This document shows, piece after piece, positions 2-18,298 of a stretch of 22,240 bases of DNA (position 1 is its first letter; the number at the start of each line of letters is the position of its first letter). The notes beneath the pieces are model-generated. The model was given only the letters and a program-made list of their open reading frames with translations. It made no database searches and was not told where the DNA came from. The translations under genes were made by a program, and so were the position numbers. This DNA comes from Phycisphaerae bacterium. Lineage in GTDB: Bacteria; Planctomycetota; Phycisphaerae; SM23-33. The stretch lies in assembly GCA_021108335.1 (NCBI GenBank), contig JAIORC010000021.1, positions 1-22,240 of the forward strand. Reading direction: 5' to 3'.

Positions 2-1642
2 GTGCAGATCAAAATGCTCCGCGGCGGCAAGTGGCAGCTGTTGGGAACGCTGGAAGCCACCGGCGACAACAAGTGGAAAACTTTCACCTGCGATATTCCC
101 AATGTCTCGGTAAAAATGGAAAGATTCGAGCTGGTCGCCCATGTCCGCCAGGACAAGTCCACGCCAATCGACTCCATAACCATTACCCTGCCGATCCAGC
201 CAAAGCAGAAAACCGAGCCGGACCGGCTGCTTACACAGAAAGAGTACTGGAAAAAATCGCTGGTTACAGCCGCCGAGGCCTACTGGGGAATGCCCCTGGG
301 GCAAAACTGGTTCGTACAGAATCAATTCCTGGTGGGTAAGCATTTTCTACTGGAAGTGTATCACATAACGGGGGATAAGCGATACCTTGATTGTGTGCTG
401 GCTGCCCTGAACAAGTACACTTTCCGCTATCCTTATACCCAGGACGGCATACAGGGCGAGTGGAACGAAGCCATCCGCGGAGCCACGAAGCGAAGGGTGA
501 GAACACTCGGTTACGACCCCAATTACACCTTCACATCAGAGTCCGCCATTGCGCTTATCTACAATCTCCTGCCCGAGAAACTCGCAGCCGCTGAGCGAAA
601 AAAATTCAGGGAGATAATGGCTAAGCATTTCGACACGCTGCAATACCTGACCATGCCGCGGGAGAATAACTATTATCACCAAGCCGGCTTCGGGTGTCGA
701 GGCAACGCGAGAAAGTACAATTTCTGGCAAGTGCCTCTCAACAATGCCGGCACTAATTCCGATTTCCTGCTCGCACCGTTCGTTTTCGCGGAGTGCTCGC
801 CGGTCGCCAAAAAGTGGGCGGCGATAATCTGCGAAGATTTCAATACCCCCTCGCTGCCGTACGGCCAAGCGTGGGGACGGAGTAAAGACGGCGGCCCGGC
901 AGGTTACAGCCTCTCCTGGGCGCCACACGAGGCGCACCAGTTCATCGATTGTTACGAATTCTGGAAAGATTATTCTTCGGACTACGTGCTCGTAAACGAC
1001 CGCAAGGAAGGATATATCAAAAATCTATCCGAGACGAAAATCGTGGCTGTCAAGACGGGCGGCTATATCGTCAACCTTTCCTACGGCTCGGCGGTTCCAA
1101 GCGGCGGCGTGATTGCCGATGTGTACAGCCTGGCCCACAAGAGCCACCTGTTCAGCGGGCGCGCCGGCCAACTCTATGGCCTGAACTGCCTTATATACGA
1201 GCAGGACGGGAAGACGGCATCGAATAATTTCGACGTCAAGGCCAAGTGCAAGATACTGAGCGACAAAGCCCCCTATAAAATACAAATCTCCGGAACCTTG
1301 CGGCATAGAAATCAGAAAACCGTTCCGATCAACTACACAATAACCTATTGCTTCAAAGACGACGCCATCGAAGTAACGAATAAACTGAAAATCCTCAAGC
1401 CGCTGGAAGGCAAACTATACGTAGTCTGCACGCCCATACAGGCCGCCAAACCGCCGGTAATCTCCGACAAAAAAATAACTTATGATAGGACTGTGATTCA
1501 GAGCCACGCCGCTATATCCGCCGAACTGCAGGAAAAGGCCAAAACAGGCGGCTGGGGAACAGTGGACGTGATAAGAATGTTCGAACAATCCGCCACGGAC
1601 AAAACGTCGCTGACTCAAAAGTACGAAGTCCTATTAAAATAA
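2..1642 (+). CDS. Secreted protein of unknown family, 5'-truncated by the window edge. It is a tandem paralog of the next gene.
   Basis: Open frame runs from the window start to TAA at 1640-1642. The 546 aa align colinearly at ~90% identity with residues ~270-823 of the downstream ORF. DNA at 1-60 matches 2450-2510 almost base for base. The homology begins exactly at the window edge, so the gene extends upstream. Confidence 0.8.
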   Translation: MQIKMLRGGKWQLLGTLEATGDNKWKTFTCDIPNVSVKMERFELVAHVRQDKSTPIDSITITLPIQPKQKTEPDRLLTQKEYWKKSLVTAAEAYWGMPLGQNWFVQNQFLVGKHFLLEVYHITGDKRYLDCVLAALNKYTFRYPYTQDGIQGEWNEAIRGATKRRVRTLGYDPNYTFTSESAIALIYNLLPEKLAAAERKKFREIMAKHFDTLQYLTMPRENNYYHQAGFGCRGNARKYNFWQVPLNNAGTNSDFLLAPFVFAECSPVAKKWAAIICEDFNTPSLPYGQAWGRSKDGGPAGYSLSWAPHEAHQFIDCYEFWKDYSSDYVLVNDRKEGYIKNLSETKIVAVKTGGYIVNLSYGSAVPSGGVIADVYSLAHKSHLFSGRAGQLYGLNCLIYEQDGKTASNNFDVKAKCKILSDKAPYKIQISGTLRHRNQKTVPINYTITYCFKDDAIEVTNKLKILKPLEGKLYVVCTPIQAAKPPVISDKKITYDRTVIQSHAAISAELQEKAKTGGWGTVDVIRMFEQSATDKTSLTQKYEVLLK

Positions 1643-1646
1643 TCTG

Positions 1647-4118
1647 ATGATTAATCAAAATTTAGCAGGAACTCAAAAAATGACTAGCAAAGCACCCGCT
1701 ATGGGCAGCGTTTTTTTATCGAGTCTGATTCTGTTGGCGATTCCCTCCGTGTCCATGAGCGCCGGGCCGAAGGCCGACAAACCGGCTGCCTCAAATCGCA
1801 TCAATACCATTAAAACTTTTGATCTGATGATTCCGAGGGCATTGGCTGCCCAGCAAATGGATCCGAAGAAACCGGCTTACGGCTCCATGCCGATTAAAAG
1901 GGAAAGTCAGTTCTTCATCCACGAGGCGATATACGGCCTGGCGTGGAGATACAATCACGACCTGACGGCGGAGCTGGGATACAAGGATCCCTGGTACCGT
2001 AACCCCAAACTGCTGAAAAGCGCCATTGCCATGGGCGAATATATCATTTCCCGACAGAGACAGAGGGGCGGATGGGGGTGGACGAGGGGATACGTCGAAA
2101 ACGCGTTTATCGGGCGAACGCTGGCCAAGGCCTACGTGCAGCTCGAACCGTATCTCGATGATACCGTGAGAGATCGCAAATGGCCGACGCGGAAAAGCAA
2201 ATTCAGCGGAAATGTCGGCGACAATGACGATTTCAGGGGCAACTTGACTGGGCATATCTGGCTGGCGCCGCCAAGGAGGTGGTCGGCCATCGCCAAAGAC
2301 GGGAAGACCGATTACCGTACGCCTGCTGCCAAGTCAATGTCCTATTTTTATTACATGAACCGTGGCGGGAATAAATATGACAAGGACTCCGACGGGATAA
2401 TCGACGCGCCTTTCAAGTTGGCTATCCGATACAAAGACACGGGCGCGAAAGTGCAGATCAAAATGCTCCGCGGCGGCAAGTGGCAGCTGTTGGGAACGCT
2501 GGAATCCACCGGCGACAACAAGTGGAAAATTTTCACCTGCGATATTTCCAATATCCCGGTAAAAATGGAAAGATTCGATATGGCCGCCCATGTCCGCCAG
2601 GACAAGTCCACGCCAATCGATTCCATAACCATTACCCCGCCGATCCAGCCGAAGCCCAAAGCCGACCCGGACCGGCTGCTTACACAGAAAGAGTATTGGA
2701 AAAAATCGCTGGTAACAGCCGCCGAGGCTTATTGGGGAATGCCCCTGGGGCAGAACTGGTTCGTTCAGAATCAGTTCCTGGTGGCTAAGCATTTTCTATT
2801 GGAAATGTATCATATAACGGGGGAGAAGCGATACCTTGATTGCGTGCTGGCGGCCCTGAACAAGTATACTTTCCGCTATCCCTATACCCAGGACGGATTG
2901 CAGGGCGAGTGGAACAACTCCATCCACGGAGCCACGAAGCGAGGGGTGAAAAAAATCGGTTACGACCCCAATTACGCTTTTACTTCCGAGTCCGCCCTGG
3001 CGCTTATCTACAATCTCCTGCCCGAGAAACTTGCGGCGGCTGAGCGAAAGAAAATCAGGGAGATAATGGCTAAGCATTTCGACACGCTGCAATACCTGAC
3101 CATGCCGCGGGAGAATAACTATTATCACCAAGCCGGCTTCGGGTGTCGGGGCAACGCGAGAAAGTACAATTTCTGGCAAGTGCCTCTCAACAATGCCGGC
3201 ACACATTCCGATTTTCTGCTCGCGCCGTTCGTTTTCGCACAACACTCACCGGTCGCCAAAAAGTGGGCTGCGATAATCTGCGAGGATTTCAACACTCCCT
3301 CGCTGCCGTACGGCCAATCGTGGGGGCGGGGCAAAAACGGCGGCCCGACAGGTTACAGCCTCGCCTGGTCGGCACACGAGACGCACCAGTTCATCGATTG
3401 TTACGAGTTCTGGAAAAAATATTCTTCGGATTACGTGCTCGTAAACGACCGCAAGGAAGGATACCTCAAGAATCTATCCGAGACGAAGATCGTGGCTGTC
3501 AAGACGGGCGGCTATATCGTCAACCTTTCCTATGGCCCGGCAACTCCAAGCGGCGGCGTGATTGCCGACATGTACGACCTGGCCAAAAAGAGCCACCAGT
3601 TCAGCGGGCACTCTCGCAGGCTCCAAGGCCTGAACTGCATCGTATACGAGCAGGACGGAAAGACGGCAGCGAATAATTACGACATCGAGGCCAAGTGCAA
3701 GGTACGGAGCGACAAAGCCCCCTACAAAATACAAATCTCCGGAACCTTGCGGCATAGAAGAAGCCAGAAAACTGTTCCGATCAACTACACGACAACCTAT
3801 TGCTTCAAAGACGACGCCATCGAGATAACGAATAAACTGGAAATCATCAAGCCGGTAAAAGGCAAACTATACGTAATCTACACGCCCATACAGGCCGACA
3901 ACGCCCCGGTAACATCCTATAAAAAAATAATTTATGATTGGTGCATAATAAGACATGGAAAACACTCCGCCAAACGGCAAGAAGTCGGAAAGGCAAAGGC
4001 CGCAAAGGCCGGCTGGGGAAAAGTGGATGTGATAAAAATGTTCGAACAATCCGCCGCAGGCAAAACATCGCTGACTCAAAAGTACGAAATACGGAAGCTC
4101 GGAGCACGGGCAAAATAA
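1647..4118 (+). CDS. Secreted 823-aa protein with an N-terminal signal peptide, family unassigned. It may be a carbohydrate-active enzyme of alpha/alpha-toroid type, but this is speculative.
   Basis: ATG at 1647 lies 4 nt after the upstream stop. The N-terminus MTSKAPAMGSVFLSSLILLAIPSVSMSAGPK has a hydrophobic h-region followed by A-x-A-like cleavage context. It is one long uninterrupted ORF. It is rich in W/Y/aromatic motifs (GGWGWTRGY, WFVQNQF, NNYYHQAGFG) that recur in glycan-binding folds. I recognise no family signature with certainty. Confidence 0.8.
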   Translation: MINQNLAGTQKMTSKAPAMGSVFLSSLILLAIPSVSMSAGPKADKPAASNRINTIKTFDLMIPRALAAQQMDPKKPAYGSMPIKRESQFFIHEAIYGLAWRYNHDLTAELGYKDPWYRNPKLLKSAIAMGEYIISRQRQRGGWGWTRGYVENAFIGRTLAKAYVQLEPYLDDTVRDRKWPTRKSKFSGNVGDNDDFRGNLTGHIWLAPPRRWSAIAKDGKTDYRTPAAKSMSYFYYMNRGGNKYDKDSDGIIDAPFKLAIRYKDTGAKVQIKMLRGGKWQLLGTLESTGDNKWKIFTCDISNIPVKMERFDMAAHVRQDKSTPIDSITITPPIQPKPKADPDRLLTQKEYWKKSLVTAAEAYWGMPLGQNWFVQNQFLVAKHFLLEMYHITGEKRYLDCVLAALNKYTFRYPYTQDGLQGEWNNSIHGATKRGVKKIGYDPNYAFTSESALALIYNLLPEKLAAAERKKIREIMAKHFDTLQYLTMPRENNYYHQAGFGCRGNARKYNFWQVPLNNAGTHSDFLLAPFVFAQHSPVAKKWAAIICEDFNTPSLPYGQSWGRGKNGGPTGYSLAWSAHETHQFIDCYEFWKKYSSDYVLVNDRKEGYLKNLSETKIVAVKTGGYIVNLSYGPATPSGGVIADMYDLAKKSHQFSGHSRRLQGLNCIVYEQDGKTAANNYDIEAKCKVRSDKAPYKIQISGTLRHRRSQKTVPINYTTTYCFKDDAIEITNKLEIIKPVKGKLYVIYTPIQADNAPVTSYKKIIYDWCIIRHGKHSAKRQEVGKAKAAKAGWGKVDVIKMFEQSAAGKTSLTQKYEIRKLGARAK

Positions 4119-4218
4119 TTCGATACAAACAATTTCAGACAGTTTCTACAAATTGCCCTGGTACTCCGTCCCAGAGACAATAATGGGTGCCCCCCAGGGG
4201 GCGGTAAAAAAACGCGTC

Positions 4219-4254
4219 GGGTGCCGTGGCGGGAAGCGAAGCTTTCAGCCACGA
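4219..4254 (-). repeat. REP-like 36-nt core repeat, copy A1 in inverted orientation.
   Basis: It is the reverse complement of the consensus TCGTGGCTGAAAGCTTCGCTTCCCGCCACGGCACCC and identical to copy A2. Confidence 0.7.
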
Positions 4255-4292
4255 AAGAGAGACACACCATGGCAGATGGTATGTTTGGGTGG

Positions 4293-4320
4293 CATGGTCC
4301 CCTGGGGACCATGTGTTTTT
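4293..4320 (+). terminator. Candidate intrinsic terminator: 10-bp GC-rich stem followed by a T tract.
   Basis: catggtcccc-t-ggggaccatg is followed by tgttttt. It lies ~175 nt downstream of the stop of the 823-aa gene and inside the repeat element. Confidence 0.35.
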
Positions 4321-4544
4321 CGTCCCGCGAACCAGGTGCGAGGGTGGCACAGGTTTGCAACCTGTGCCGCGGTGGCCTGGGAAGGCCACCGCGCTAGGGT
4401 ACAAAGTGAGGCCATGAGGGATGGCGTAGAAATTGCGAATCGATCTTTCATGGCTACCCCGCAAAAAACGCGGGGTTTCCATGCCACCCGACATCGTGGG
4501 AAATTGTCGGGTGCCCCCCAAGGGGCTTTCTCGCAATAGTTACG

Positions 4545-4580
4545 TCGTGGCTGAAAGCTTCGCTTCCCGCCACGGCACCC
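4545..4580 (+). repeat. REP-like 36-nt core repeat, copy A2.
   Basis: tcgtggctgaaagcttcgcttcccgccacggcaccc. Its ends CGTGGC...GCCACG are themselves inverted, which is the palindromic character of REP elements. Confidence 0.7.
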
Positions 4581-4600
4581 ATTATTTTTTACGGGACAGA

Positions 4601-5875
4601 TTACCAGGAAGCCGCTACAAATTGCTCCAGCTCAGTTACCAGGCGGCTGGCGTGGTCGGCCAGAAGTTCCAGGCCTCCACGTTTGGGGCGGAAAGCGTTA
4701 TAGAAAAGAAATGCGGATTCGACCTCGTAGCCGCCCTCGTCATACGCCGAGGCTGTGGGCACATACCCGACTACGCCATTGGCCAAACCTACCGTGTAAA
4801 CTTTTTGCCACGTACTCGCGCGAACTATCTCCGTAAAAGTGGAAAAGATTTCCGCGTTGACACCCAGCAATACAACACCGCCAATCGCCAGGGCGAATAA
4901 TTCGATGTCTACATAATCGGCACCGTTGTTTTGCACGTACTCCGTCATCGACTCGCGCCAGGTCTCAACCGCGAGGCGATAATTTTCGCCCCAATCCGGA
5001 TCGTTGGCAAAGGAGAGGTATTGATCCGCATGGCTATTGATCTGTTCGACACTCCAGACATCCAGGGGCAGCGGAACGGTTTTTGTCAAGACTACCGGCG
5101 ACGCATTTTTTGCCGGCGCGCCTGTCGGTGCCTGTAGCAGTTTGTCTATAACGGACTCCGCCAATTGCCGGCTCCAATCCTTCATCTGCTCGAAATCGAC
5201 GCCGACTGTCGGCGGATTTATATTGCCGCACGCGCCGACGCACACCAGCGCCATCGGTTTACCGGGCAATTGTTCAGACAGAGCAATTGCGGCTTGCCCC
5301 GGGTAATCGGCGCTGGTCTGGTAGTCCTTCATGCAGACCGCGTGCATGGCATAATTAAGCACGACCGCTTTGAACGTATCATCAGTTCGCCGCCATCCAA
5401 TCGCCCCGACGCGCGGATCTGCATGGGCCGAAGCCCCCCGCCGAACTATTGCCAATTCATACAGGCCCTCGACGGTTACTGGCGTGCAGTTTTCGGTATT
5501 CGCCAGGGCATCGGCGGCAGCGGCTTGCATCCACTGTTTTAACTGCTCGACGTAGCCGGCATCGTATCGGCCACACCCGGTCAGGTGAACCACCACCGGG
5601 CCGGAGTGGGTATGCGTAGCCGAAACCATCACACGCGACGACGGCAAGCCCAGTTCCCGCTCGGCCCAGCGCCTGAAGTCATCGACGAAGCTCCGCTCGA
5701 AACCGAGCAAATCCGCGTGAAGCCACAATACGCGTTCGTCGCCTTCTTCCAGGTACAAAGCCCGGCAATACAACGGGTCGTGCACACCCGTCGAGGGGTG
5801 CGTGCGGTCGGCAAAGCCCGTTATGTCGCTGCCCGGCTTGGGTGTAATGTCTATCTGCGACGTTCCAACAATCAT
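4601..5875 (-). CDS. Hydrolase with a neutral/alkaline ceramidase N-terminal-like domain, 424 aa.
   Basis: ATG at 5875 overlaps the upstream TGA as ATGA. The N-terminal block MIVGTSQIDITPKPGSDITGFADR...HDPLYCRALYLEEGDERVLWLHADL resembles the start of the neutral ceramidase family (GxxxxDITP...G, hydroxy/acidic ladder). No signal peptide is visible. The functional call is made from memory of family motifs and has moderate confidence only. Confidence 0.6.
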   Translation of the reverse strand: MIVGTSQIDITPKPGSDITGFADRTHPSTGVHDPLYCRALYLEEGDERVLWLHADLLGFERSFVDDFRRWAERELGLPSSRVMVSATHTHSGPVVVHLTGCGRYDAGYVEQLKQWMQAAAADALANTENCTPVTVEGLYELAIVRRGASAHADPRVGAIGWRRTDDTFKAVVLNYAMHAVCMKDYQTSADYPGQAAIALSEQLPGKPMALVCVGACGNINPPTVGVDFEQMKDWSRQLAESVIDKLLQAPTGAPAKNASPVVLTKTVPLPLDVWSVEQINSHADQYLSFANDPDWGENYRLAVETWRESMTEYVQNNGADYVDIELFALAIGGVVLLGVNAEIFSTFTEIVRASTWQKVYTVGLANGVVGYVPTASAYDEGGYEVESAFLFYNAFRPKRGGLELLADHASRLVTELEQFVAASW

Positions 5876-10596: not shown

Positions 10597-10604
10597 GCAA
10601 CAGT

Positions 10605-10672
10605 ATCGTGGCTGTCGCTAACGCTCCCGCCACGGCACCCGCTGAGCGGTAGCAACAGCCACGATGTTTGCC
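10605..10672 (+). repeat. REP-like core copy B (10606-10640), embedded in a larger hairpin formed with a partial inverted copy, acagccacgatgtttg.
   Basis: tcgtggctgtcgctaacgctcccgccacggcaccc matches the consensus. atcgtggctgt at 10605-10615 pairs with acagccacgat at 10655-10665 as an 11-bp stem. It sits between the 156-aa ORF stop (10596) and the ankyrin gene stop (10759). Confidence 0.6.
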
Positions 10673-10758
10673 AAGCCGCCCGCCAACTACCGCGGATATG
10701 CCCCGCGCTGGCCATCGCCGTCATCGCCACCGCAGCCAACCGCCGGCTCTCAAAAATC

Positions 10759-13707
10759 TCAGTGCGTGGCCCCCGCCTTTTTGAGCAGCTTGACGATTTT
10801 CGGGCTGCCACCGCCATAACACGATTTTGCCGCCATTAACGCCGTTCTGCCACTTTTGGTCTTGGCATTTACATCGGCACCTTTGTCCAGCAGTAGTGTG
10901 ACTATTTTCATATTGCCATACCGCGATGCTGCCGCCATTAAGGCTGTACTGCCGTTTTTGTCTTTGGCGTTTACGTCGGCACCCTTGTTAAGCAACAACT
11001 TTACGGTTTTCGTATCTTTTTTCCGCGATGCCGCCACCATCAAAGCCGTTTTGCCCATTTCGGTTTTGGCGTTTACGTCGATACCCTTGCTCAGCAACAA
11101 ATTTACGACTTCTGTCTTGCCTCTCCGCGATGCCGTTATCAAGGCCGTGCCTTTTTTTGTTTTGGCGTTTATGTCGGCACCCTTGTCCAGCAACAGTTTG
11201 ACGATTTTCGTATTGCCTTTCGACGAAGCTGCCATCAAGACCGTGTAGCCACTTTTTGTTTTGGCGTTTACATCAGCACCCTTGTCAAGTAACAGTTTGA
11301 CGATTTTCGTATTGCCTTTTGACGAAGCTGCCATCAAGATCGTGTAGTCAGTTATTGTTTTGGCGTTTATGTCGGCACCCTTGTCAAGTAACAACTTTAC
11401 GACTCCCGTGTTGTTTTTCCACAATGCCACCATCAAGGGTGTATCGCCGTTTGTGTTTCCGACGTTTACGTCGGCACCCCTGTCCAATAACAACTTTACG
11501 GCTTCCATGTTGCTTTTCCGCGATGCCACCATCAAGGCCGTGTTGCCTTTTATGTCTCTGACGTTTACGTCGGCACCCCTGTCCAACAGCAGCTTGACGG
11601 TTTTTCTATGGTCACTCCGCAATGTCGTTATCAAGGCCGTGCCTTTTTGTGTTTTGGTGTTTACGTCGGCACCCTTGTCCAACAACAACTTTACGATTTT
11701 CGTATTGTTTTTCCGCGATGCCGCCATCAAGGCCGTGTAGCCACTTTTGGTTTTGGCATTCACATCTGCACCCTTGTCCAGCAACAATTTTATGATCTCC
11801 GTATTGCCCCTTCCCGATGCCGTTATCAAGGCCGTGCCCTTTTTCGTTGTGGCGTTTATATCGGCGCCTTTGTCCAGCAACAATTTTATGATTTCCGTAT
11901 TGCCCCTTCCCGATGCCGTTATCAAGGCCGTGCCCTTTTTCGTTGTGGCGTTTATATCGGCACCCTTGTCCAGCAACAATTTTATAATTTCCGTATGGTC
12001 CCCTTCCGATGCCATTATCAAGGCCGTGCCCTTTTTTGTTTTGGCGTTTATGTCGGCACCCTTGTTAAGCAACAACTTTACGACTTCCGTATGGCCTCCC
12101 TCCGCAGCCGCCATCAAGGCCATATTGCCGTTTTTGTCTTTGGCTTTTACATCGGCACCCTTGTCCAGCAGCAGTTTGACGGCCTTCGCATGGCCTCCCC
12201 CCGAAGCCTCTATTAAGGGCGTGGTGCCCCAATCAGTTTTGGCGTTTACATCGGCACCTTTGTCCAACAACAGTTTAACGATCTTCGTATGGCCTTTCAG
12301 CGAAGCCGCCATCAAGGCTGCACTTTTGGCTTTTACGTCGGCACCCTTGTCCAACAGCAGTTTGACGGTCTCTACATGGCCTCCCCCCGAAGCCGCCACC
12401 AAGGCTGTACCGCCCCAGCGAGTTTTGGCTTTTGTATCAACACCTTTGTCCAATAACAGCTTTGCGATTTTCGTATGGCCTCCCCTCGACGCATCCATCA
12501 AGGCCGTATAACCACCCTTGGTTTTAGCATTCACATCGGCGCCCTTGCTCAGCAACATTTTTACGAATTCCGTATTGCCTCCCTCCGAAGCTGCCATCAA
12601 AACCGTGTAGCCATTTTTGGTTTTGGCTTTTATATCGGCACCCTTGCCCAGCAGCAACTTTACGGTTTTAGTATTGCCTCTCAGTAATGCTGCCGCCATC
12701 AGGGCGGTGTAGCCCCCGCCATTTTTGGCGTTCACATCAGCGCCATTGTCCAGCAACAGCTTGACGATCTTCGTACGGCCACGTCGTGATGCCGACCACA
12801 AGGCCGTGTAGCCTTTTTTGTCTCTGGCGTTTACTTTGGCACCTTTGTCCAGCAACAACTTGACGATTTCCGCATTGCCTTTCCGCCATGCCACTATCAT
12901 CAAGGCCGTAGAGCCACTTTTGGTTTTGGTGTTCGCATCCGCGCCATTGTCCAGCAACAGTTTGGCGATCTTCGTACGGCCATCCTGCAATGCTTTTATC
13001 AAGACCATTTCTCCGCGTGGGTATCTGGTGTTCGCATCGGCCCCCTTGTCCAATAACAGTTTAACGATCCTTGTATGGCGTTCCCGCAATGCCTCCGTCA
13101 AGGCCCTACTTCCGAATGTTCCGAATGTGTCGGCGTTTACCTTGGCACCTTTGTCCAGCGACAGTTTGACGACTTCCGTATAGCCTCTCCTGGAAGCCCT
13201 CTCCAAAACTGTTTCGTGTCCGTATATGCTTTTGGCGTTTACGTCTGCACCCTTGTCCAGCAACAGTTTGACGATCTCCGTATTGCCTCGCCGTAATGCT
13301 ATCCACAAGATCGTCTCGTCACCTTTGCGTTTGGTATTTGCATCAGCACCTTTGTCCAGCAATAGCTTGACTGTCTTCGCATGGCCTTGCTGCACAGCTT
13401 CTATCAAGGCCGTACAGCCAGATTTGGATTTGGCTTTTGCGTCGGCACCCTTGTCCAGCAACAGCTTGACAATCTTCGCATGGCCTGTCTGCGACGCATT
13501 CATTAGGGCTGTTCTGCCATTTTCGTCTCTGGCGTTCACATCAAGCCCGGTTTGAAGGAGTTTCTTTACTTTTTCCGCATCTCGAGCCCAGATGGCCTGG
13601 CGAAGTTCTTTGGGGTCGGCTGGCTTGTTTATCCAAATGCCCACGCCGCATGCCAGAATCAGCCCCACGACGACGAGTTTGACGATGTTGCTTTTCATTC
13701 GATTCAT
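10759..13707 (-). CDS. Ankyrin-repeat protein of ~983 aa with about 28 ANK repeats and an N-terminal signal-anchor/TM helix.
   Basis: The ORF is continuous and has 33-residue repeats of the form G-TALM-AS--GH--IVKLLLDKGADVNAKTK-. The N-terminus MNRMKSNIVKLVVVGLILACGVGIW is hydrophobic. The likely start is ATG at 13707 with ggag 6 nt upstream. The longer ORF to 13794 lacks an SD. Confidence 0.85.
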   Translation of the reverse strand: MNRMKSNIVKLVVVGLILACGVGIWINKPADPKELRQAIWARDAEKVKKLLQTGLDVNARDENGRTALMNASQTGHAKIVKLLLDKGADAKAKSKSGCTALIEAVQQGHAKTVKLLLDKGADANTKRKGDETILWIALRRGNTEIVKLLLDKGADVNAKSIYGHETVLERASRRGYTEVVKLSLDKGAKVNADTFGTFGSRALTEALRERHTRIVKLLLDKGADANTRYPRGEMVLIKALQDGRTKIAKLLLDNGADANTKTKSGSTALMIVAWRKGNAEIVKLLLDKGAKVNARDKKGYTALWSASRRGRTKIVKLLLDNGADVNAKNGGGYTALMAAALLRGNTKTVKLLLGKGADIKAKTKNGYTVLMAASEGGNTEFVKMLLSKGADVNAKTKGGYTALMDASRGGHTKIAKLLLDKGVDTKAKTRWGGTALVAASGGGHVETVKLLLDKGADVKAKSAALMAASLKGHTKIVKLLLDKGADVNAKTDWGTTPLIEASGGGHAKAVKLLLDKGADVKAKDKNGNMALMAAAEGGHTEVVKLLLNKGADINAKTKKGTALIMASEGDHTEIIKLLLDKGADINATTKKGTALITASGRGNTEIIKLLLDKGADINATTKKGTALITASGRGNTEIIKLLLDKGADVNAKTKSGYTALMAASRKNNTKIVKLLLDKGADVNTKTQKGTALITTLRSDHRKTVKLLLDRGADVNVRDIKGNTALMVASRKSNMEAVKLLLDRGADVNVGNTNGDTPLMVALWKNNTGVVKLLLDKGADINAKTITDYTILMAASSKGNTKIVKLLLDKGADVNAKTKSGYTVLMAASSKGNTKIVKLLLDKGADINAKTKKGTALITASRRGKTEVVNLLLSKGIDVNAKTEMGKTALMVAASRKKDTKTVKLLLNKGADVNAKDKNGSTALMAAASRYGNMKIVTLLLDKGADVNAKTKSGRTALMAAKSCYGGGSPKIVKLLKKAGATH
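11786..12075. repeat. Three near-identical 96-bp tandem repeats inside the ankyrin CDS.
   Basis: 11786-11881 and 11882-11977 differ at ~3 positions. A third, more diverged unit follows. They encode KKGTALITASGRGNTEIIKLLLDKGADINATT twice verbatim (32-aa units). Confidence 0.75.
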
Positions 13708-13847
13708 AATCAACTCCGTAAAAATCGTGAACGTACCAAAGATGTAGGGCCGGTGATTCTGCCGAGGGCAGGCATGCCCTCGTGGTTCACCCATGCGCAG
13801 GCGGAAACACCCACCCCGTCACCGGAGAATTAACTGCTCTTGTAACA

Positions 13848-13882
13848 TCGTGGCAGAAAGCTTCGCTCCCGCCACGGCACCC
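13848..13882 (+). repeat. REP-like core copy C.
   Basis: tcgtggcagaaagcttcgctcccgccacggcaccc. It lies in the 280-bp spacer between the flotillin stop (14076) and the ankyrin start. Confidence 0.65.
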
Positions 13883-13904
13883 TGTCAAAGTAAATCGCGG
13901 GCCA

Positions 13905-14029
13905 ATTGCGCGGCGGCCAGGGATGGCCGCCGCGCGATATGCGTCTTATGCTGGGCCGGGTGCCATGCTTCTGCTTGCAGAAGCATGCTGTCTCGCATCC
14001 ATCATGGCGACCCCTGCGGTGTCGCCATG
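13905..14029. other. Cluster of three strong stem-loops in non-coding DNA.
   Basis: 13905-13938 has a 15-bp GC-rich stem gcgcggcggcca/tggccgccgcgc with loop ggga. 13964-13987 is catgcttctg-cttg-cagaagcatg. 14003-14029 is catggcgac-ccctgcggt-gtcgccatg followed by ccatgccacccaa. They could be terminator or attenuator structures for the upstream minus-strand flotillin operon, or part of the repeat element. Confidence 0.4.
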
Positions 14030-14075
14030 CCACCCAATTTGTTATTTTGCTTCGCCGGGCGGCATGCCTGGGAAA

Positions 14076-15611
14076 CTATTTTTCGCTGCCCTGATCTTTT
14101 TGGGGTTCCCCGGTTGTTTCGGCTTGTGCGTTTGCTTCCTTGGCGATTTTGCCGAGGAATTCCGGCAGTTCCAGGCCGACCTGTTTTGCCAGTTCGTGCA
14201 TCGGCGGCAAAGCGCCCATTAGACGCTGGCCGAGGTTCTTCATGCCGCCGCCCTCGCCGCCACCGTCCCAGATGAAGACCTTTTCGATCGGCAGATCCTG
14301 GATGGCCTGGGCCTGTATGGACGCGATCTGCTTGAGTTTTTCGACCACCAACAGCGAGGCTGCGCCTTTGGTGTCGCCGGTGGCGTCGATGAGGTGCTGA
14401 TAGCCCTTGGCCTTGCCGTCCAGGATGGCTTGCTCGCCCTGGCCTTCGGCGGTCATTCGGGCGATCTTTGCCTTGGCGTCGCCCTCCGCGATGAGGATTT
14501 TCTGCTCTTTCTCAGCGTCGGCGGCGATGATGACTTTGCCCTTCTCGGCTTCGGCGGGCACGATTACTTCGGCGTTGAGGCGAGCCGCTTCGCGTTGGGC
14601 GCGGGCTTCCTCTGCCTTCTTCTCAGCCATCTGCTCGGCGACGCGGACAGCGCCGGTGGCTTCCCGTGCGGCGGATTCCGACCGCTGGCGGGCGGTCTGC
14701 TCGGCGACTTCCTGGTTGGCGTTATAGGCAGCCTTTTTGGCGTTGGCGACGGTTTCGGCTTCGACGGCTTGGGCTTCCAGGCCGGCTACCTGTTGACGTT
14801 TGTCGCGTTCTGCGGTGGTTTCGCCGATGTCGGCAGTGGCGTTGGCGGCGGCGACTGCTACGCGGGTATCTCGCTGCCGCTCGGCGACGCCGGTTTTACC
14901 GGATTTTTCCTGCTCGGCGACGTCGATATTGGCTTGGTTGATCGCCTCCGCGGCGGCTTTTCGGCCCAGGGCGATGATGTACCCGGACTCGTCCTCGATG
15001 TCGCGAATGTTGACGTTGATGACCTGCAGGCCGATCTTTTCCAGTTCCAGGGAGACGGCTTCGTTGACCTTGCCCATGAACGCCTGGCGGTCGCGGTTGA
15101 TATCCTCGATTTTCATCGTGGCGATGACGGCACGCATTTGGCCGAGGATGATATCCTGTGCCTGTGCCTGTATCTGCACGCGGGAAAGCCCCAGCAGGCG
15201 GACGGCGGCGCTCTGCATGATGCCCGGCCGATTGGAGATGGCTGCGGTAACGGTCGTCGGTACGGTTACGCGGATGTTTTCCTGCGAGAGTGCGTTTGAC
15301 AGGTCAATCGGCACGACGAACGGTTCGAGGTCGAGATATTCGTACGCCTGAAACAGCGGCCATATGAACGCCGCCCCGCCGTGGACGCACTTGGCGGCAC
15401 CGCTGCCGGTCTTGCCGTAAATCACGAGAATTTTATTGGCTGGGCAGCGTTTGTACCGCTTGGCCAGGGTGATGAACAGAACGAGGATAATCACCCCGAT
15501 AATCAACGCCAGTATGAGTGCTACGGGCATTCCAGCCTCTGTTTGTGTTTCAGCGGCTCTGCGGCTGCCGGCTACCGCCAGCGGGAGGGATGACATAAGA
15601 GATTCGATCAT
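14076..15611 (-). CDS. floT: Flotillin-like SPFH/Band-7 protein (FloT/YqiK family), 511 aa.
   Basis: An N-terminal TM helix (PVALILALIIGVIILVLFITLA) is followed by an SPFH domain and a long A/E/Q-rich coiled-coil tail typical of flotillins. ATG at 15611 overlaps the NfeD stop as ATGA. aagga lies 9 nt upstream. Confidence 0.85.
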   Translation of the reverse strand: MIESLMSSLPLAVAGSRRAAETQTEAGMPVALILALIIGVIILVLFITLAKRYKRCPANKILVIYGKTGSGAAKCVHGGAAFIWPLFQAYEYLDLEPFVVPIDLSNALSQENIRVTVPTTVTAAISNRPGIMQSAAVRLLGLSRVQIQAQAQDIILGQMRAVIATMKIEDINRDRQAFMGKVNEAVSLELEKIGLQVINVNIRDIEDESGYIIALGRKAAAEAINQANIDVAEQEKSGKTGVAERQRDTRVAVAAANATADIGETTAERDKRQQVAGLEAQAVEAETVANAKKAAYNANQEVAEQTARQRSESAAREATGAVRVAEQMAEKKAEEARAQREAARLNAEVIVPAEAEKGKVIIAADAEKEQKILIAEGDAKAKIARMTAEGQGEQAILDGKAKGYQHLIDATGDTKGAASLLVVEKLKQIASIQAQAIQDLPIEKVFIWDGGGEGGGMKNLGQRLMGALPPMHELAKQVGLELPEFLGKIAKEANAQAETTGEPQKDQGSEK

Positions 15612-16288
15612 GATTGCGTTTCCTTTGCATTAGAGGTTTTTTGAAAATTTTCGGAAGATTCGGATTTTTCAATGGTTTTAACTTCTATGGTATTTGGGCT
15701 GAGCACTCGCGTAACGGTTATCGGCGTGCCTGCCGGGATTACCGCGTCCGTTGCGCCGCGGGCCTTGAAAACCTGCATCACGCCGCTGACGGTTACGCGT
15801 GCCTCGCCCATGCCGGCGGAGGGGATGTCGATATAGGCAGTGCCTTCGGTGCCCACGCAACTGGCAAGGCTCATGTTGCCGCTTTCGGTCATGCGGCGCA
15901 TCAGGTGGAAAATCATCGCTACGGCAATCATCGCCACCGCGCCCCAGGCGGTTGCCAGCGCGACGGCCCATTGTAATTCTTTGCCGCCTTGGAGGTACAT
16001 CGCCCCCGCCCAGGAAAACAGCGTGCAAAACGCCAGTATCGAGCGAACGCTCAGGAGTTTGAAGGCCGCCACCGAATCGAGGGCGTCGTGGTCGATATCG
16101 TGATCAAAATCGTGATCGATATCTCCGTGGGTGTCGTAGTCGTGCGCGTCGGCGTCGATTTCATCTTCGCCGCCGCCCAGGCCTATCAACGCGGCAATCA
16201 ACTGCCAGACAAAGAAAACGCTGAAAAATGCTGCCGCAACGTAAAACCCCTGATTGATACCGTTCAGGTTATGCCACCATTCCGCCAT
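15608..16288 (-). CDS. NfeD-family membrane protein (YuaF/YqiJ-like) and flotillin operon partner. It contains a His/Asp-rich low-complexity insert.
   Basis: Two N-terminal TM helices are followed by a C-terminal OB-fold-like beta segment (EARVTVSGVMQVFKARGATDAVIPAGTPITVTRV). The gene is translationally coupled to the flotillin gene. Its SD aaggaga lies 6 nt upstream of ATG at 16288. The segment DEIDADAHDYDTHGDIDHDFDHDIDHD is encoded at ~16075-16170. Confidence 0.8.
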   Translation of the reverse strand: MAEWWHNLNGINQGFYVAAAFFSVFFVWQLIAALIGLGGGEDEIDADAHDYDTHGDIDHDFDHDIDHDALDSVAAFKLLSVRSILAFCTLFSWAGAMYLQGGKELQWAVALATAWGAVAMIAVAMIFHLMRRMTESGNMSLASCVGTEGTAYIDIPSAGMGEARVTVSGVMQVFKARGATDAVIPAGTPITVTRVLSPNTIEVKTIEKSESSENFQKTSNAKETQS

Positions 16289-17970: not shown

Positions 17971-18224
17971 ACTTCGCGCGGGACGAACAACACATGGCTT
18001 GCAAGCAAACCATGCCACCCAAACTATTAAACTCCGCGCGGCGGTCTTCCCAGGCCGTCGCGTATCACCCACGACCGTAGGGTGGGTGCTCCCGCCCACG
18101 TTGGAACCGGGAAAAACACACGGCTCCCAGGGGATTATGCCACCCAGCCATGATGTTTGCTGGAGAAGAATTTCAAGGTAGGGCTTGACCGGAGCGGCTT
18201 AAATTGCTAAAAGGGTTCCTCCCA

Positions 18225-18298
<74 letters not shown>

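What the first reader, a model, noticed from the sequence alone, without database searches (positions are those of the whole stretch)
10759..13707. Giant membrane-anchored ankyrin-repeat protein with freshly duplicated 96-bp repeat units
A protein of ~28 ANK repeats with an N-terminal signal-anchor is uncommon in bacteria. Within the gene, three 96-bp units at 11786-12075 are almost identical, two of them differing at ~3 of 96 nt. This implies very recent expansion by slipped-strand or unequal recombination, and repeat number may vary between strains or cells. The gene sits next to an NfeD-flotillin membrane-microdomain operon. It is also separated from that operon by the REP-like spacer. The reverse strand of the repeats has long stop-free frames because of the repeat composition. 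I treat those as artefacts.
Basis: seen in the sequence. Interest (0 to 1): 0.55.

Follow-up and report, generated by a model that had tools for sequence, protein, structure and literature searches.

The report
Membrane-anchored 28-repeat ankyrin protein, ordinary
This is a real but unremarkable gene from a Phycisphaerae (Planctomycetota) metagenome genome: a long stack of 28 ankyrin protein-binding repeats held by one membrane helix, which grew by copying its own units, and nothing shows that the unit number is changing today.

Summary
Window 10759-13707 (minus strand) encodes a 982-aa protein. It has one N-terminal hydrophobic segment (aa 8-26) followed by 28 ankyrin repeats (Pfam Ank E 3.7e-221). 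Units 16 and 17 (11884-11979, 11788-11883) differ at 3 of 96 nt, against an array background of 69 +/- 6 %. The third unit (11980-12075) is only 85-89 % identical to them.

All three differences are synonymous third-position transitions (dS about 0.14, dN 0). The copy is therefore the youngest in the array, but it is not fresh. Older duplications of single units and of a multi-unit block are also visible.

I found no ortholog or variant allele. The best match among 5.8 billion proteins is 48-52 % identical. An independent assembly gives the identical gene. Repeat-number variation therefore remains untested.

Adjacency to NfeD-flotillin is not conserved: 0 of 39 related loci carry an ankyrin gene on that side.

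Long ankyrin arrays with signal peptides or BlaR1-type membrane domains are common among Planctomycetota and other metagenomic bacterial hits.

The most likely reading is a membrane-tethered, periplasm-facing protein-binding scaffold. It is a new member of a known kind and of low interest.

The parts
10759..13707 (-). Coding sequence of the 982-aa ankyrin-repeat protein (stop codon 10759-10761)
   Evidence: ORF list, translation, Pfam Ank E 3.7e-221, PDB ankyrin-R/B 24-repeat domain 4rlv E 3.3e-122
13714..13717 (-). GGAG Shine-Dalgarno-like motif, 6 nt upstream of the ATG at 13707
   Evidence: Read directly from the sequence
13630..13686 (-). Codons for aa 8-26, the only hydrophobic segment (signal anchor or Sec signal). 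The N-flank carries R3, K5 and K10
   Evidence: Kyte-Doolittle scan: the only windows above 1.6 start at aa 4-12. The lipobox-like ILAC(17-20) fails the PROSITE PS51257 pattern because of K10
10789..13563 (-). Array of 28 ankyrin units (29-36 aa each), followed by a short C-terminal cap (LLKKAGATH)
   Evidence: Consensus unit LLLDKGADVNAKTKxGxTALMxASxxGxTKIVK
11788..11883 (-). Unit 17 (32 aa), near-identical twin of unit 16
   Evidence: 93/96 nt identical to unit 16; the peptides are identical
11884..11979 (-). Unit 16 (32 aa)
   Evidence: Three differences from unit 17, at unit positions 15, 18 and 87, all third-codon-position transitions. The 68-nt perfect run at offset 96 lies at 11894-11961
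11980..12075 (-). Unit 15 (32 aa), an older member of the same 32-aa subfamily
   Evidence: 85/96 and 82/96 nt identical to units 16 and 17. The period-96 similarity spans about 11746-12122
11197..11394 (-). Units 23 and 22, the second-youngest tandem pair (91 % nt identity)
   Evidence: dS 0.20, dN 0.07
11033..11824 (-). Older multi-unit block duplication: 11033-11332 versus 11525-11824, 79 % identity over 300 nt (units 18/23 at 84 %, 19/24 at 82 %)
   Evidence: the repeat finder family D4; offset-5 peak in unit identities
13708..14075 (.). 368-nt spacer between the flotillin and ankyrin genes. It holds hairpins at 13905-13938, 13964-13987 and 14003-14029 and a REP-like element at 13842-13882
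   Evidence: Other assemblies break here, at 13980-14034 and at 14009
10597..10758 (.). Downstream spacer with a 22-nt-arm hairpin at 10605-10665 and the 19-nt REP core at 10622-10640
   Evidence: The Logan contig ends at 10634 and the ENA contig at 10762
14076..16288 (-). nfeD (15608-16288) and flotillin (14076-15611) pair upstream on the same strand. This is context, not shown to be part of the same unit
   Evidence: Band_7 E 1e-26; NCBI names. The pair is conserved in 39 of 40 related loci without an ankyrin gene downstream

Best explanation
The gene encodes a single-pass, N-terminally anchored (or Sec-exported) protein. The rest of the protein is one uninterrupted stack of 28 ankyrin repeats ending in a normal C-terminal cap.

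Shown:
- It is an ankyrin array, of a size like the 24-repeat ankyrin membrane-binding domain or the NOMPC array.
- The framework positions (LLLDKGADVNAK, TAL, IVK) are almost invariant. The usual binding-surface positions vary between units.
- The array was built by repeated tandem duplication, both of single units (20/21, 22/23, 15->16->17) and of a block of several units (about 17-20 versus 22-25).
- The last event left units 16/17 with three synonymous differences.

Inferred:
- Three positive charges precede the helix and the net charge after it is +1. The positive-inside rule therefore puts the N-terminus in the cytoplasm and the repeat stack outside it, in the periplasm.
- The very hydrophobic helix would favour co-translational (SRP) export, which fast-folding ankyrin stacks need.
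- There the stack most likely serves as a long protein-binding scaffold or tether at the cytoplasmic membrane, like other signal-peptide-bearing or BlaR1-fused ankyrin arrays of Planctomycetota.
- Unequal recombination or replication slippage between units is the growth mechanism. It could still act on the 68-nt perfect repeat, but there is no sign that it is frequent.
For: Ankyrin identity.

Unit map, identities and substitution pattern. Consensus and variable positions.

Topology indicators: one hydrophobic segment only, with the charge distribution described.

The N-terminal half of the single-sequence AlphaFold model (aa 30-480) has pLDDT about 70-90 with alternating helix pairs.

Comparable bacterial proteins carry cleavable signal peptides or lipoprotein-like signals (P0020, P0049, P0098, P0084, P0027, P0062). 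Others carry a BlaR1-type M56 membrane domain followed by a TM helix, PD40 repeats and then the ankyrin array (P0010 from Phycisphaerae, P0070 from Planctomycetes).

The identical gene occurs in an independent assembly.

Multi-unit duplication is described for ankyrin arrays in the literature (PMC4304861, citing Bjorklund 2006).
Against: No signal-peptide or topology predictor was available. Cleavage by signal peptidase I (after G23) or lipidation at C20 cannot be excluded, nor can the opposite orientation.

Single-sequence AlphaFold gave low confidence for aa 490-800, which includes the 32-aa units. The continuity of the stack through the young units is therefore inferred from sequence only.

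No binding partner, expression data or ortholog exists to support any specific role.
Confidence: 0.68

Rival explanations
1. Hypervariable (VNTR-like) locus. The near-identical 96-nt units were made very recently by slippage or unequal crossing-over, and the repeat number differs between cells or strains, tuning the length of the protein.
For: Units 16/17 are 97 % identical with a 68-nt perfect direct repeat, enough for RecA-dependent or slippage events. Ankyrin genes of Wolbachia do vary in repeat number between strains: WD0766 has 8-14 repeats plus 2 TM domains (PMC3287509).
Against: The three differences are all synonymous (dS about 0.14), so the copies have coexisted long enough to diverge under selection. 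Only one pair exceeds 91 % and units are not homogenised. Two assemblies agree on the structure. No length variant appears in 5.8 billion proteins or in JGI metagenomes.
Confidence: 0.12
2. Concerted evolution. Units 16/17 (and 22/23) are old neighbours kept alike by gene conversion, not new copies.
For: Adjacent units are on average more alike (72.9 %) than distant ones (68-70 %). Conversion and duplication leave the same footprint.
Against: Units 15, 16, 17, 19 and 24 share a one-codon deletion in the beta-turn and cluster together. Block similarity at offset 5 fits copy events rather than local conversion. Period-96 identity ends sharply at about 11746 and about 12122.
Confidence: 0.15
3. 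Eukaryote-directed factor. The array is exposed on the cell surface or released, and binds proteins of a protist grazer or host, as ankyrin effectors of intracellular bacteria and sponge symbionts do.
For: The best full-length matches are eukaryotic ankyrin arrays (fungal NACHT-ANK at 48-51 % identity, vertebrate ankyrin-1). NCBIfam gives sub-threshold matches to Legionella Ank effectors.
Against: Those matches reflect consensus-like repeats only, and every NCBIfam score is far below its cut-off. There are no secretion-system genes in the window. An uncleaved anchor would keep the protein at the inner membrane. GC3 of 0.61 is at the low end of neighbouring genes (0.62-0.77), so there is no clear transfer signal.
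Confidence: 0.1
4. Functional partner of the NfeD-flotillin membrane-microdomain system: co-transcribed with it and recruited to flotillin platforms, a bacterial echo of ankyrin-based membrane skeletons.
For: Same strand, directly downstream, with no sigma-70-like promoter found in the spacer. One unrelated MAG (L019) has a small secreted ankyrin gene next to nfeD.
Against: 0 of 39 related nfeD-flotillin loci have an ankyrin gene downstream. One neighbour in 40 loci is about what chance gives. The 368-nt spacer is full of hairpins and REP-like elements. Flotillin is cytoplasmic-face, whereas the array is predicted to be outside.
Confidence: 0.06
5. The copy number of the near-identical units is an assembly artefact: collapse or mis-expansion in short-read assembly.
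For: Short-read assemblies of this community fragment around the gene. A 68-nt perfect repeat exceeds the apparent k of 55 of the ENA assembly.
Against: The two units are distinguishable every <=68 nt, well within read length. Two different assemblies give the same 3327 nt. The reading frame and repeat register are intact.
Confidence: 0.08

Closest known systems
Eukaryotic giant ankyrin arrays: the ankyrin-R/B 24-repeat membrane-binding domain (PDB 4rlv) and the NOMPC 29-repeat array (5vkq)
   Same: Uninterrupted stack of 24-29 canonical-length ankyrin repeats. Strongest solved-structure matches (E 3.3e-122 and 4.3e-84).
   Different: Those arrays are cytoplasmic and fused to spectrin-binding or channel domains. 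This protein has only an N-terminal helix and is predicted to face the periplasm. None of its 28 units keeps the His of the TPLH motif (Met 13, Ile 7). Sequence similarity is of the consensus kind, not orthology.
Bacterial exported or membrane-anchored ankyrin arrays from metagenomes (e.g. P0020, P0062, P0098, P0084; BlaR1-type M56 peptidase-ankyrin fusions P0010 from Phycisphaerae and P0070 from Planctomycetes)
   Same: N-terminal Sec-type signal or membrane domain followed by 13-26 TALM-type repeats and a C-terminal cap of the ...LLK.(A/H)GA.. type.
   Different: At most 52 % identical, and none is an ortholog. Many carry extra domains (serpin, M56 peptidase, PD40, beta-propeller). This protein has none, and with 28 units it sits at the upper end.
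Pseudomonas aeruginosa AnkB (from my own knowledge: Howell et al. 2000, J Bacteriol; paper not held)
   Same: Small precedent for an ankyrin protein tethered to the inner membrane by an N-terminal helix with the repeats in the periplasm.
   Different: AnkB has about 4 repeats and is co-transcribed with catalase katB. Here there are 28 repeats and no catalase context.
Wolbachia variable ankyrin genes (WD0766 and others; PMC3287509)
   Same: Bacterial ankyrin genes with TM domains whose arrays grow and shrink by unit duplication. Individual repeats are duplicated in some strains.
   Different: There the variation between strains is documented. Here no second allele is known, and the youngest units are already 3 % diverged.

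Membership tests
Ankyrin repeat superfamily (Pfam PF00023 / PF12796) | Sequence match to the ~33-residue Ank profile above the gathering score | tested here: met
   702 bits against a cut-off of 21.1, 23 stretches; Ank_2 690 bits
Ankyrin repeat superfamily (Pfam PF00023 / PF12796) | Tandem, contiguous units with a period of about 33 aa | tested here: met
   28 units of 29-36 aa; TRF period 99 nt x 27 copies
Ankyrin repeat superfamily (Pfam PF00023 / PF12796) | Stacked helix-turn-helix/beta-hairpin solenoid fold along the whole array | tested here: inconclusive
   Single-sequence AlphaFold: aa 30-480 have pLDDT about 70-90 with paired helices. aa 490-800 fall below 50, and the 305-aa middle segment alone has mean pLDDT 55
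Signal-anchored / exported periplasmic protein | N-terminal positively charged stretch followed by a hydrophobic helix, with no other TM segment | tested here: met
   R3, K5, K10, then 16 apolar residues; the only hydrophobic windows start at aa 4-12
Signal-anchored / exported periplasmic protein | Repeat domain actually located outside the cytoplasm | not testable with these tools
   Needs SignalP/DeepTMHMM and reporter fusions. Only the positive-inside argument and analogy to homologs with clear signal peptides are available
Bacterial lipoprotein (PROSITE PS51257 lipobox) | {DERK}(6)-[LIVMFWSTAG](2)-[LIVMFYSTAGCQ]-[AGS]-C with Cys at position 15-35 | tested here: not met
   ILAC at aa 17-20 fits the last four positions, but K10 falls inside the six uncharged positions
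Variable-number tandem-repeat / contingency locus | Units (near-)identical at the nucleotide level across the array | tested here: not met
   One pair at 97 %, one at 91 %, the rest at or below 89 %, mean 69 %
Variable-number tandem-repeat / contingency locus | Different unit numbers in different strains, cells or reads | tested here: inconclusive
   Only one other assembly carries the gene and it is identical. There are no other alleles in the protein or contig collections. Reads were not available
NfeD-flotillin operon accessory gene | Conserved adjacency to nfeD-flotillin in related genomes | tested here: not met
   nfeD is next to flotillin in 39 of 40 loci, and an ankyrin ORF lies downstream in none. 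One small ankyrin ORF lies upstream in L019
Legionella Dot/Icm Ank effectors / MzaA / PADLOC ankyrin defence candidates | Score above the curated family cut-off, or presence of the system's partner genes | tested here: not met
   Best NCBIfam scores are 364 against a cut-off of 600 (AnkH) and 361 against 800 (MzaA). PADLOC hits are repeat-only, and the neighbours have no PADLOC hits

The most novel reading that the evidence does not exclude
The array is a length-tunable periplasmic tether or spring. Unit number is adjusted by ongoing unequal recombination at the young 96-nt units. The protein works with the upstream NfeD-flotillin microdomain machinery, as a bacterial counterpart of ankyrin-based membrane skeletons in a phylum known for unusual envelope architecture.
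Probability: 0.04. Interest if true: 0.55.

Novelty: new member of a known kind. Interest (0 to 1): 0.2.

Why it matters
If only the supported reading is true, it adds one more example to a large and poorly studied class: exported or membrane-anchored ankyrin arrays in Planctomycetota and other environmental bacteria. It also gives a clean small illustration of how such arrays grow, by single-unit and block duplications of different ages. It would matter more only if repeat number proved to vary within populations, or if the protein were shown to organise the envelope together with flotillin. Neither is supported here.

Tried and rejected
- Orthologs for comparing repeat counts. The full-length and mid-array searches of 5.8 billion proteins gave nothing above 52 % identity. 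The JGI metagenome scan gave at most 46 %. The exact-sequence cluster look-up did not find the 982-aa protein.
- Synteny through the flotillin gene. 40 related loci had no ankyrin gene downstream.
- Structure. Two single-sequence AlphaFold jobs gave only partial confidence. I ran no fold search because sequence evidence was already decisive.
- Lipoprotein reading. It fails the PROSITE pattern by one residue.
- Defence-system or Legionella-effector membership. Matches are repeat-only and below the cut-offs.
- Horizontal transfer. GC 0.50 and GC3 0.61 are low but within the range of neighbouring genes.
- The REP-like element flanks the gene on both sides (10622-10640 and 13864-13882, 19/19 nt). 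The same element sits in other intergenic regions of the window, so it does not mark a cassette.
- No Rfam family in the spacers.
- A literature look-up of the sample and locus identifiers found nothing.
Full report
WHAT IS THERE

The window is one whole 22,240-nt contig of a Phycisphaerae (Planctomycetota) metagenome-assembled genome. Its flotillin, NfeD and 156-aa hypothetical proteins are NCBI entries MCD4823165/166/163, and the longest contig recorded for them is 22,240 nt.

On the minus strand an ORF runs 10759-13794. The ATG at 13707 has GGAG 6 nt upstream, whereas the ATG at 13794 has no such motif. It gives 982 aa.

Pfam places it firmly among ankyrin repeats: Ank E 3.7e-221 in 23 stretches and Ank_2 E 9.9e-213. 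The best solved relatives are the 24-repeat ankyrin-R/B domain (4rlv, E 3.3e-122), NOMPC and designed ankyrin proteins.

ANATOMY

The Kyte-Doolittle scan finds only one hydrophobic segment in the protein, aa 8-26, IVKLVVVGLILACGVGIWI. It is preceded by R3, K5 and K10. It is followed by NKPADPKELR, which has a net charge of +1.

A lipobox-like ILAC at 17-20 misses the PROSITE lipoprotein pattern because K10 lies within the six positions that must be uncharged. Cleavage after G23 is formally possible. I could not run a signal-peptide predictor.

After a short linker come 28 ankyrin units of 29-36 aa and a normal C-terminal cap. The consensus unit is LLLDKGADVNAKTKxGxTALMxASxxGxTKIVK. The framework is 80-100 % conserved. 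The x positions, which form the usual binding surface of ankyrin repeats, vary between units.

None of the 28 units has the His of the textbook TPLH motif; Met (13) or Ile (7) stands there instead.

Single-sequence AlphaFold gave helix pairs with pLDDT about 70-90 for aa 30-480. Confidence was low for aa 490-800, and also for the middle 305 aa folded alone. The fold of the middle part therefore rests on sequence only.

THE NEAR-IDENTICAL UNITS

All 351 pairwise unit comparisons average 68.9 % nucleotide identity, with sd 5.8. The closest pairs are:

| Units | Window coordinates | Nucleotide identity |
|---|---|---|
| 16 vs 17 | 11884-11979 vs 11788-11883 | 93/96 (96.9 %) |
| 22 vs 23 | 11296-11394 vs 11197-11295 | 91 % |
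| 15 vs 16 | 11980-12075 vs 11884-11979 | 85/96 (88.5 %) |
| 15 vs 17 | 11980-12075 vs 11788-11883 | 82/96 (85.4 %) |
| 20 vs 21 | 11494-11592 vs 11395-11493 | 83 % |

Units 16 and 17 encode the same 32 residues. A 300-nt block, 11033-11332 versus 11525-11824, is 79 % identical; within it units 18/23 are 84 % and 19/24 are 82 % identical.

Units 15, 16, 17, 19 and 24 share a one-codon deletion in the beta-turn and cluster together. Period-96 similarity runs from about 11746 to about 12122 and stops sharply there.

The array therefore records duplications of several ages, of single units and of a multi-unit block. This is the way ankyrin arrays are reported to grow (PMC4304861).

HOW RECENT?

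The three differences between units 16 and 17 lie at unit positions 15, 18 and 87. All are third-codon-position transitions and all are synonymous (Nei-Gojobori dS 0.139, dN 0). About a quarter of sites are synonymous (23.7 of 96), so three of three is unlikely without purifying selection. A naive estimate is about 0.015, and it is less extreme once transition bias is allowed for.

The copies have therefore coexisted long enough to collect substitutions that selection has filtered. The longest perfect direct repeat is 68 nt. That is enough for further unequal exchange, but it is far from the homogenised arrays of loci that change at high frequency. 'Youngest event in the array' is right; 'freshly duplicated' is too strong.

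DOES THE NUMBER VARY?

I could not get reads.

- The exact protein is encoded on a 3327-nt SPAdes contig of ENA analysis ERZ26872896. That contig equals window 10708-14034 without a single difference.
- That assembly is not a copy of the MAG contig, because its neighbouring contig carries one SNP relative to the window. The sample is probably the same community, however.
- No near-identical fragment or length variant appeared. The full-length search gave at best 48-51 % identity, to fungal NACHT-ankyrin proteins. The search with units 14-19 gave at best 52 %. The JGI metagenome scan gave at best 46 %.

CONTEXT

The upstream pair is nfeD (15608-16288) and flotillin (14076-15611) on the same strand. 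It is separated from the ankyrin gene by 368 nt containing at least three hairpins and a REP-like element, TCGTGGCAGAAAGCTTCGCTCCCGCCACGGCACCC at 13842-13882.

That element recurs at 4219-4254 and 4545-4580. Its 19-nt core also sits downstream of the ankyrin gene at 10622-10640. Because the element occurs in several intergenic regions, it does not mark the gene as a cassette.

Short-read assemblies break on both sides of the gene, at 10634 or 10708-10762 and at 13980-14034 or 14009.

Among 40 loci from other genomes that encode a related flotillin (61-79 % identity for all but two), nfeD is adjacent in 39 and no ankyrin gene lies downstream. One MAG (L019) has a small signal-peptide ankyrin ORF upstream of nfeD, which is about what chance gives. 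The adjacency to the flotillin operon therefore gives no functional information.

HOW UNUSUAL IS IT?

Ankyrin-containing proteins occur in about 57 % of bacterial species (PMC4304861).

In the full-length search, 3417 of the 8000 candidates scored had E <= 1e-50. The 120 best listed are 918-1717 aa long. At least 15 of them are BlaR1-type M56 peptidase-ankyrin fusions, largely from Planctomycetota/Phycisphaerae and unassigned metagenome contigs. A further 14 are TALM-type arrays with an N-terminal hydrophobic signal.

In P0010 (Phycisphaerae) the array follows a TM helix and PD40 repeats, which argues for an extracytoplasmic location.

A 28-unit array with nothing but an anchor is at the long end. 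It is not a new kind of protein.

MOST LIKELY MECHANISM

By the positive-inside rule, and by analogy with these relatives, the N-terminus stays in the cytoplasm and the repeat stack lies in the periplasm. It would be tethered to the cytoplasmic membrane, or released if cleaved. The very hydrophobic helix fits co-translational export. From my own knowledge of DARPin display work, fast-folding ankyrin stacks require that route.

There the protein would act as a long protein-binding scaffold or tether. This last step is inference; no partner is known.

Rivals are scored in the report sections: hypervariable locus, gene conversion, eukaryote-directed factor, flotillin partner, and assembly artefact.

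OTHER CHECKS

- The plus-strand ORFs inside the gene have no significant family match.
- Matches to Legionella Ank effectors, MzaA and PADLOC ankyrin models are repeat-only and below the cut-offs.
- No Rfam family lies in the spacers.
- GC3 of the gene (0.61) is the lowest in the window but close to neighbours at 0.62-0.66.

VERDICT

The gene is a new member of a known kind and of low interest, unless read-level data reveal repeat-number polymorphism.

Noticed in passing
window 2-1642 and 1647-4118 (+): Two adjacent paralogous genes, the first cut by the contig end. Stretches are 87-94 % identical at the nucleotide level (1-300 vs 2450-2749 at 94 %). Neither has a Pfam hit; NCBIfam, run on the second only, found nothing. 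This is a second, gene-scale recent tandem duplication in the window.
   Followed up: partly
window 4219-4254, 4545-4580, 13842-13882, 10622-10640; also 4283-4298, 14025-14044, 18009-18029: Dispersed REP-like hairpin element (TCGTGGCxGAAAGCTTCGCTxCCCGCCACGGCACCC) and a second short motif (ACCATGCCACCCAAAC) recur in several intergenic regions. No Rfam family matches.
   Followed up: partly
window 4157-4608: A ~450-nt intergenic block bounded by long inverted arms: 36 nt at 100 % complementarity plus 35 nt at 83 %. It is built from the REP-like element and is MITE- or BIME-like in layout.
   Followed up: no
window 10634, 10708-10762, 13980-14034, 14009: Two other assemblies of evidently the same community (ENA ERZ26872896, Logan SRR15668623) end their contigs on both sides of the ankyrin gene. 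This could reflect the dispersed repeats or population heterogeneity at the gene's borders.
   Followed up: partly
window 10789-13563 (-): None of the 28 ankyrin units carries the His of the canonical TPLH motif (Met 13, Ile 7; only 2 have Pro). The same TALM-type repeat dominates the signal-peptide-bearing bacterial hits.
   Followed up: partly
L019:8200-9027 (+): In an unrelated MAG (ELA067) a 276-aa signal-peptide protein with about 4 TALM-type ankyrin repeats sits just upstream of nfeD-flotillin. It is the only such case among 40 loci.
   Followed up: partly
hits P0004, P0007, P0010, P0070 and others: A recurrent architecture in Planctomycetota/Phycisphaerae metagenomes: a BlaR1-type M56 peptidase membrane domain fused to very long ankyrin arrays, sometimes with PD40 repeats. 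This suggests ankyrin stacks used as extracytoplasmic sensor domains.
   Followed up: no
window 18226-18298 (+): A tRNA gene (Rfam RF00005, 65.9 bits) lies in the intergenic region before the GH38 alpha-mannosidase gene.
   Followed up: no
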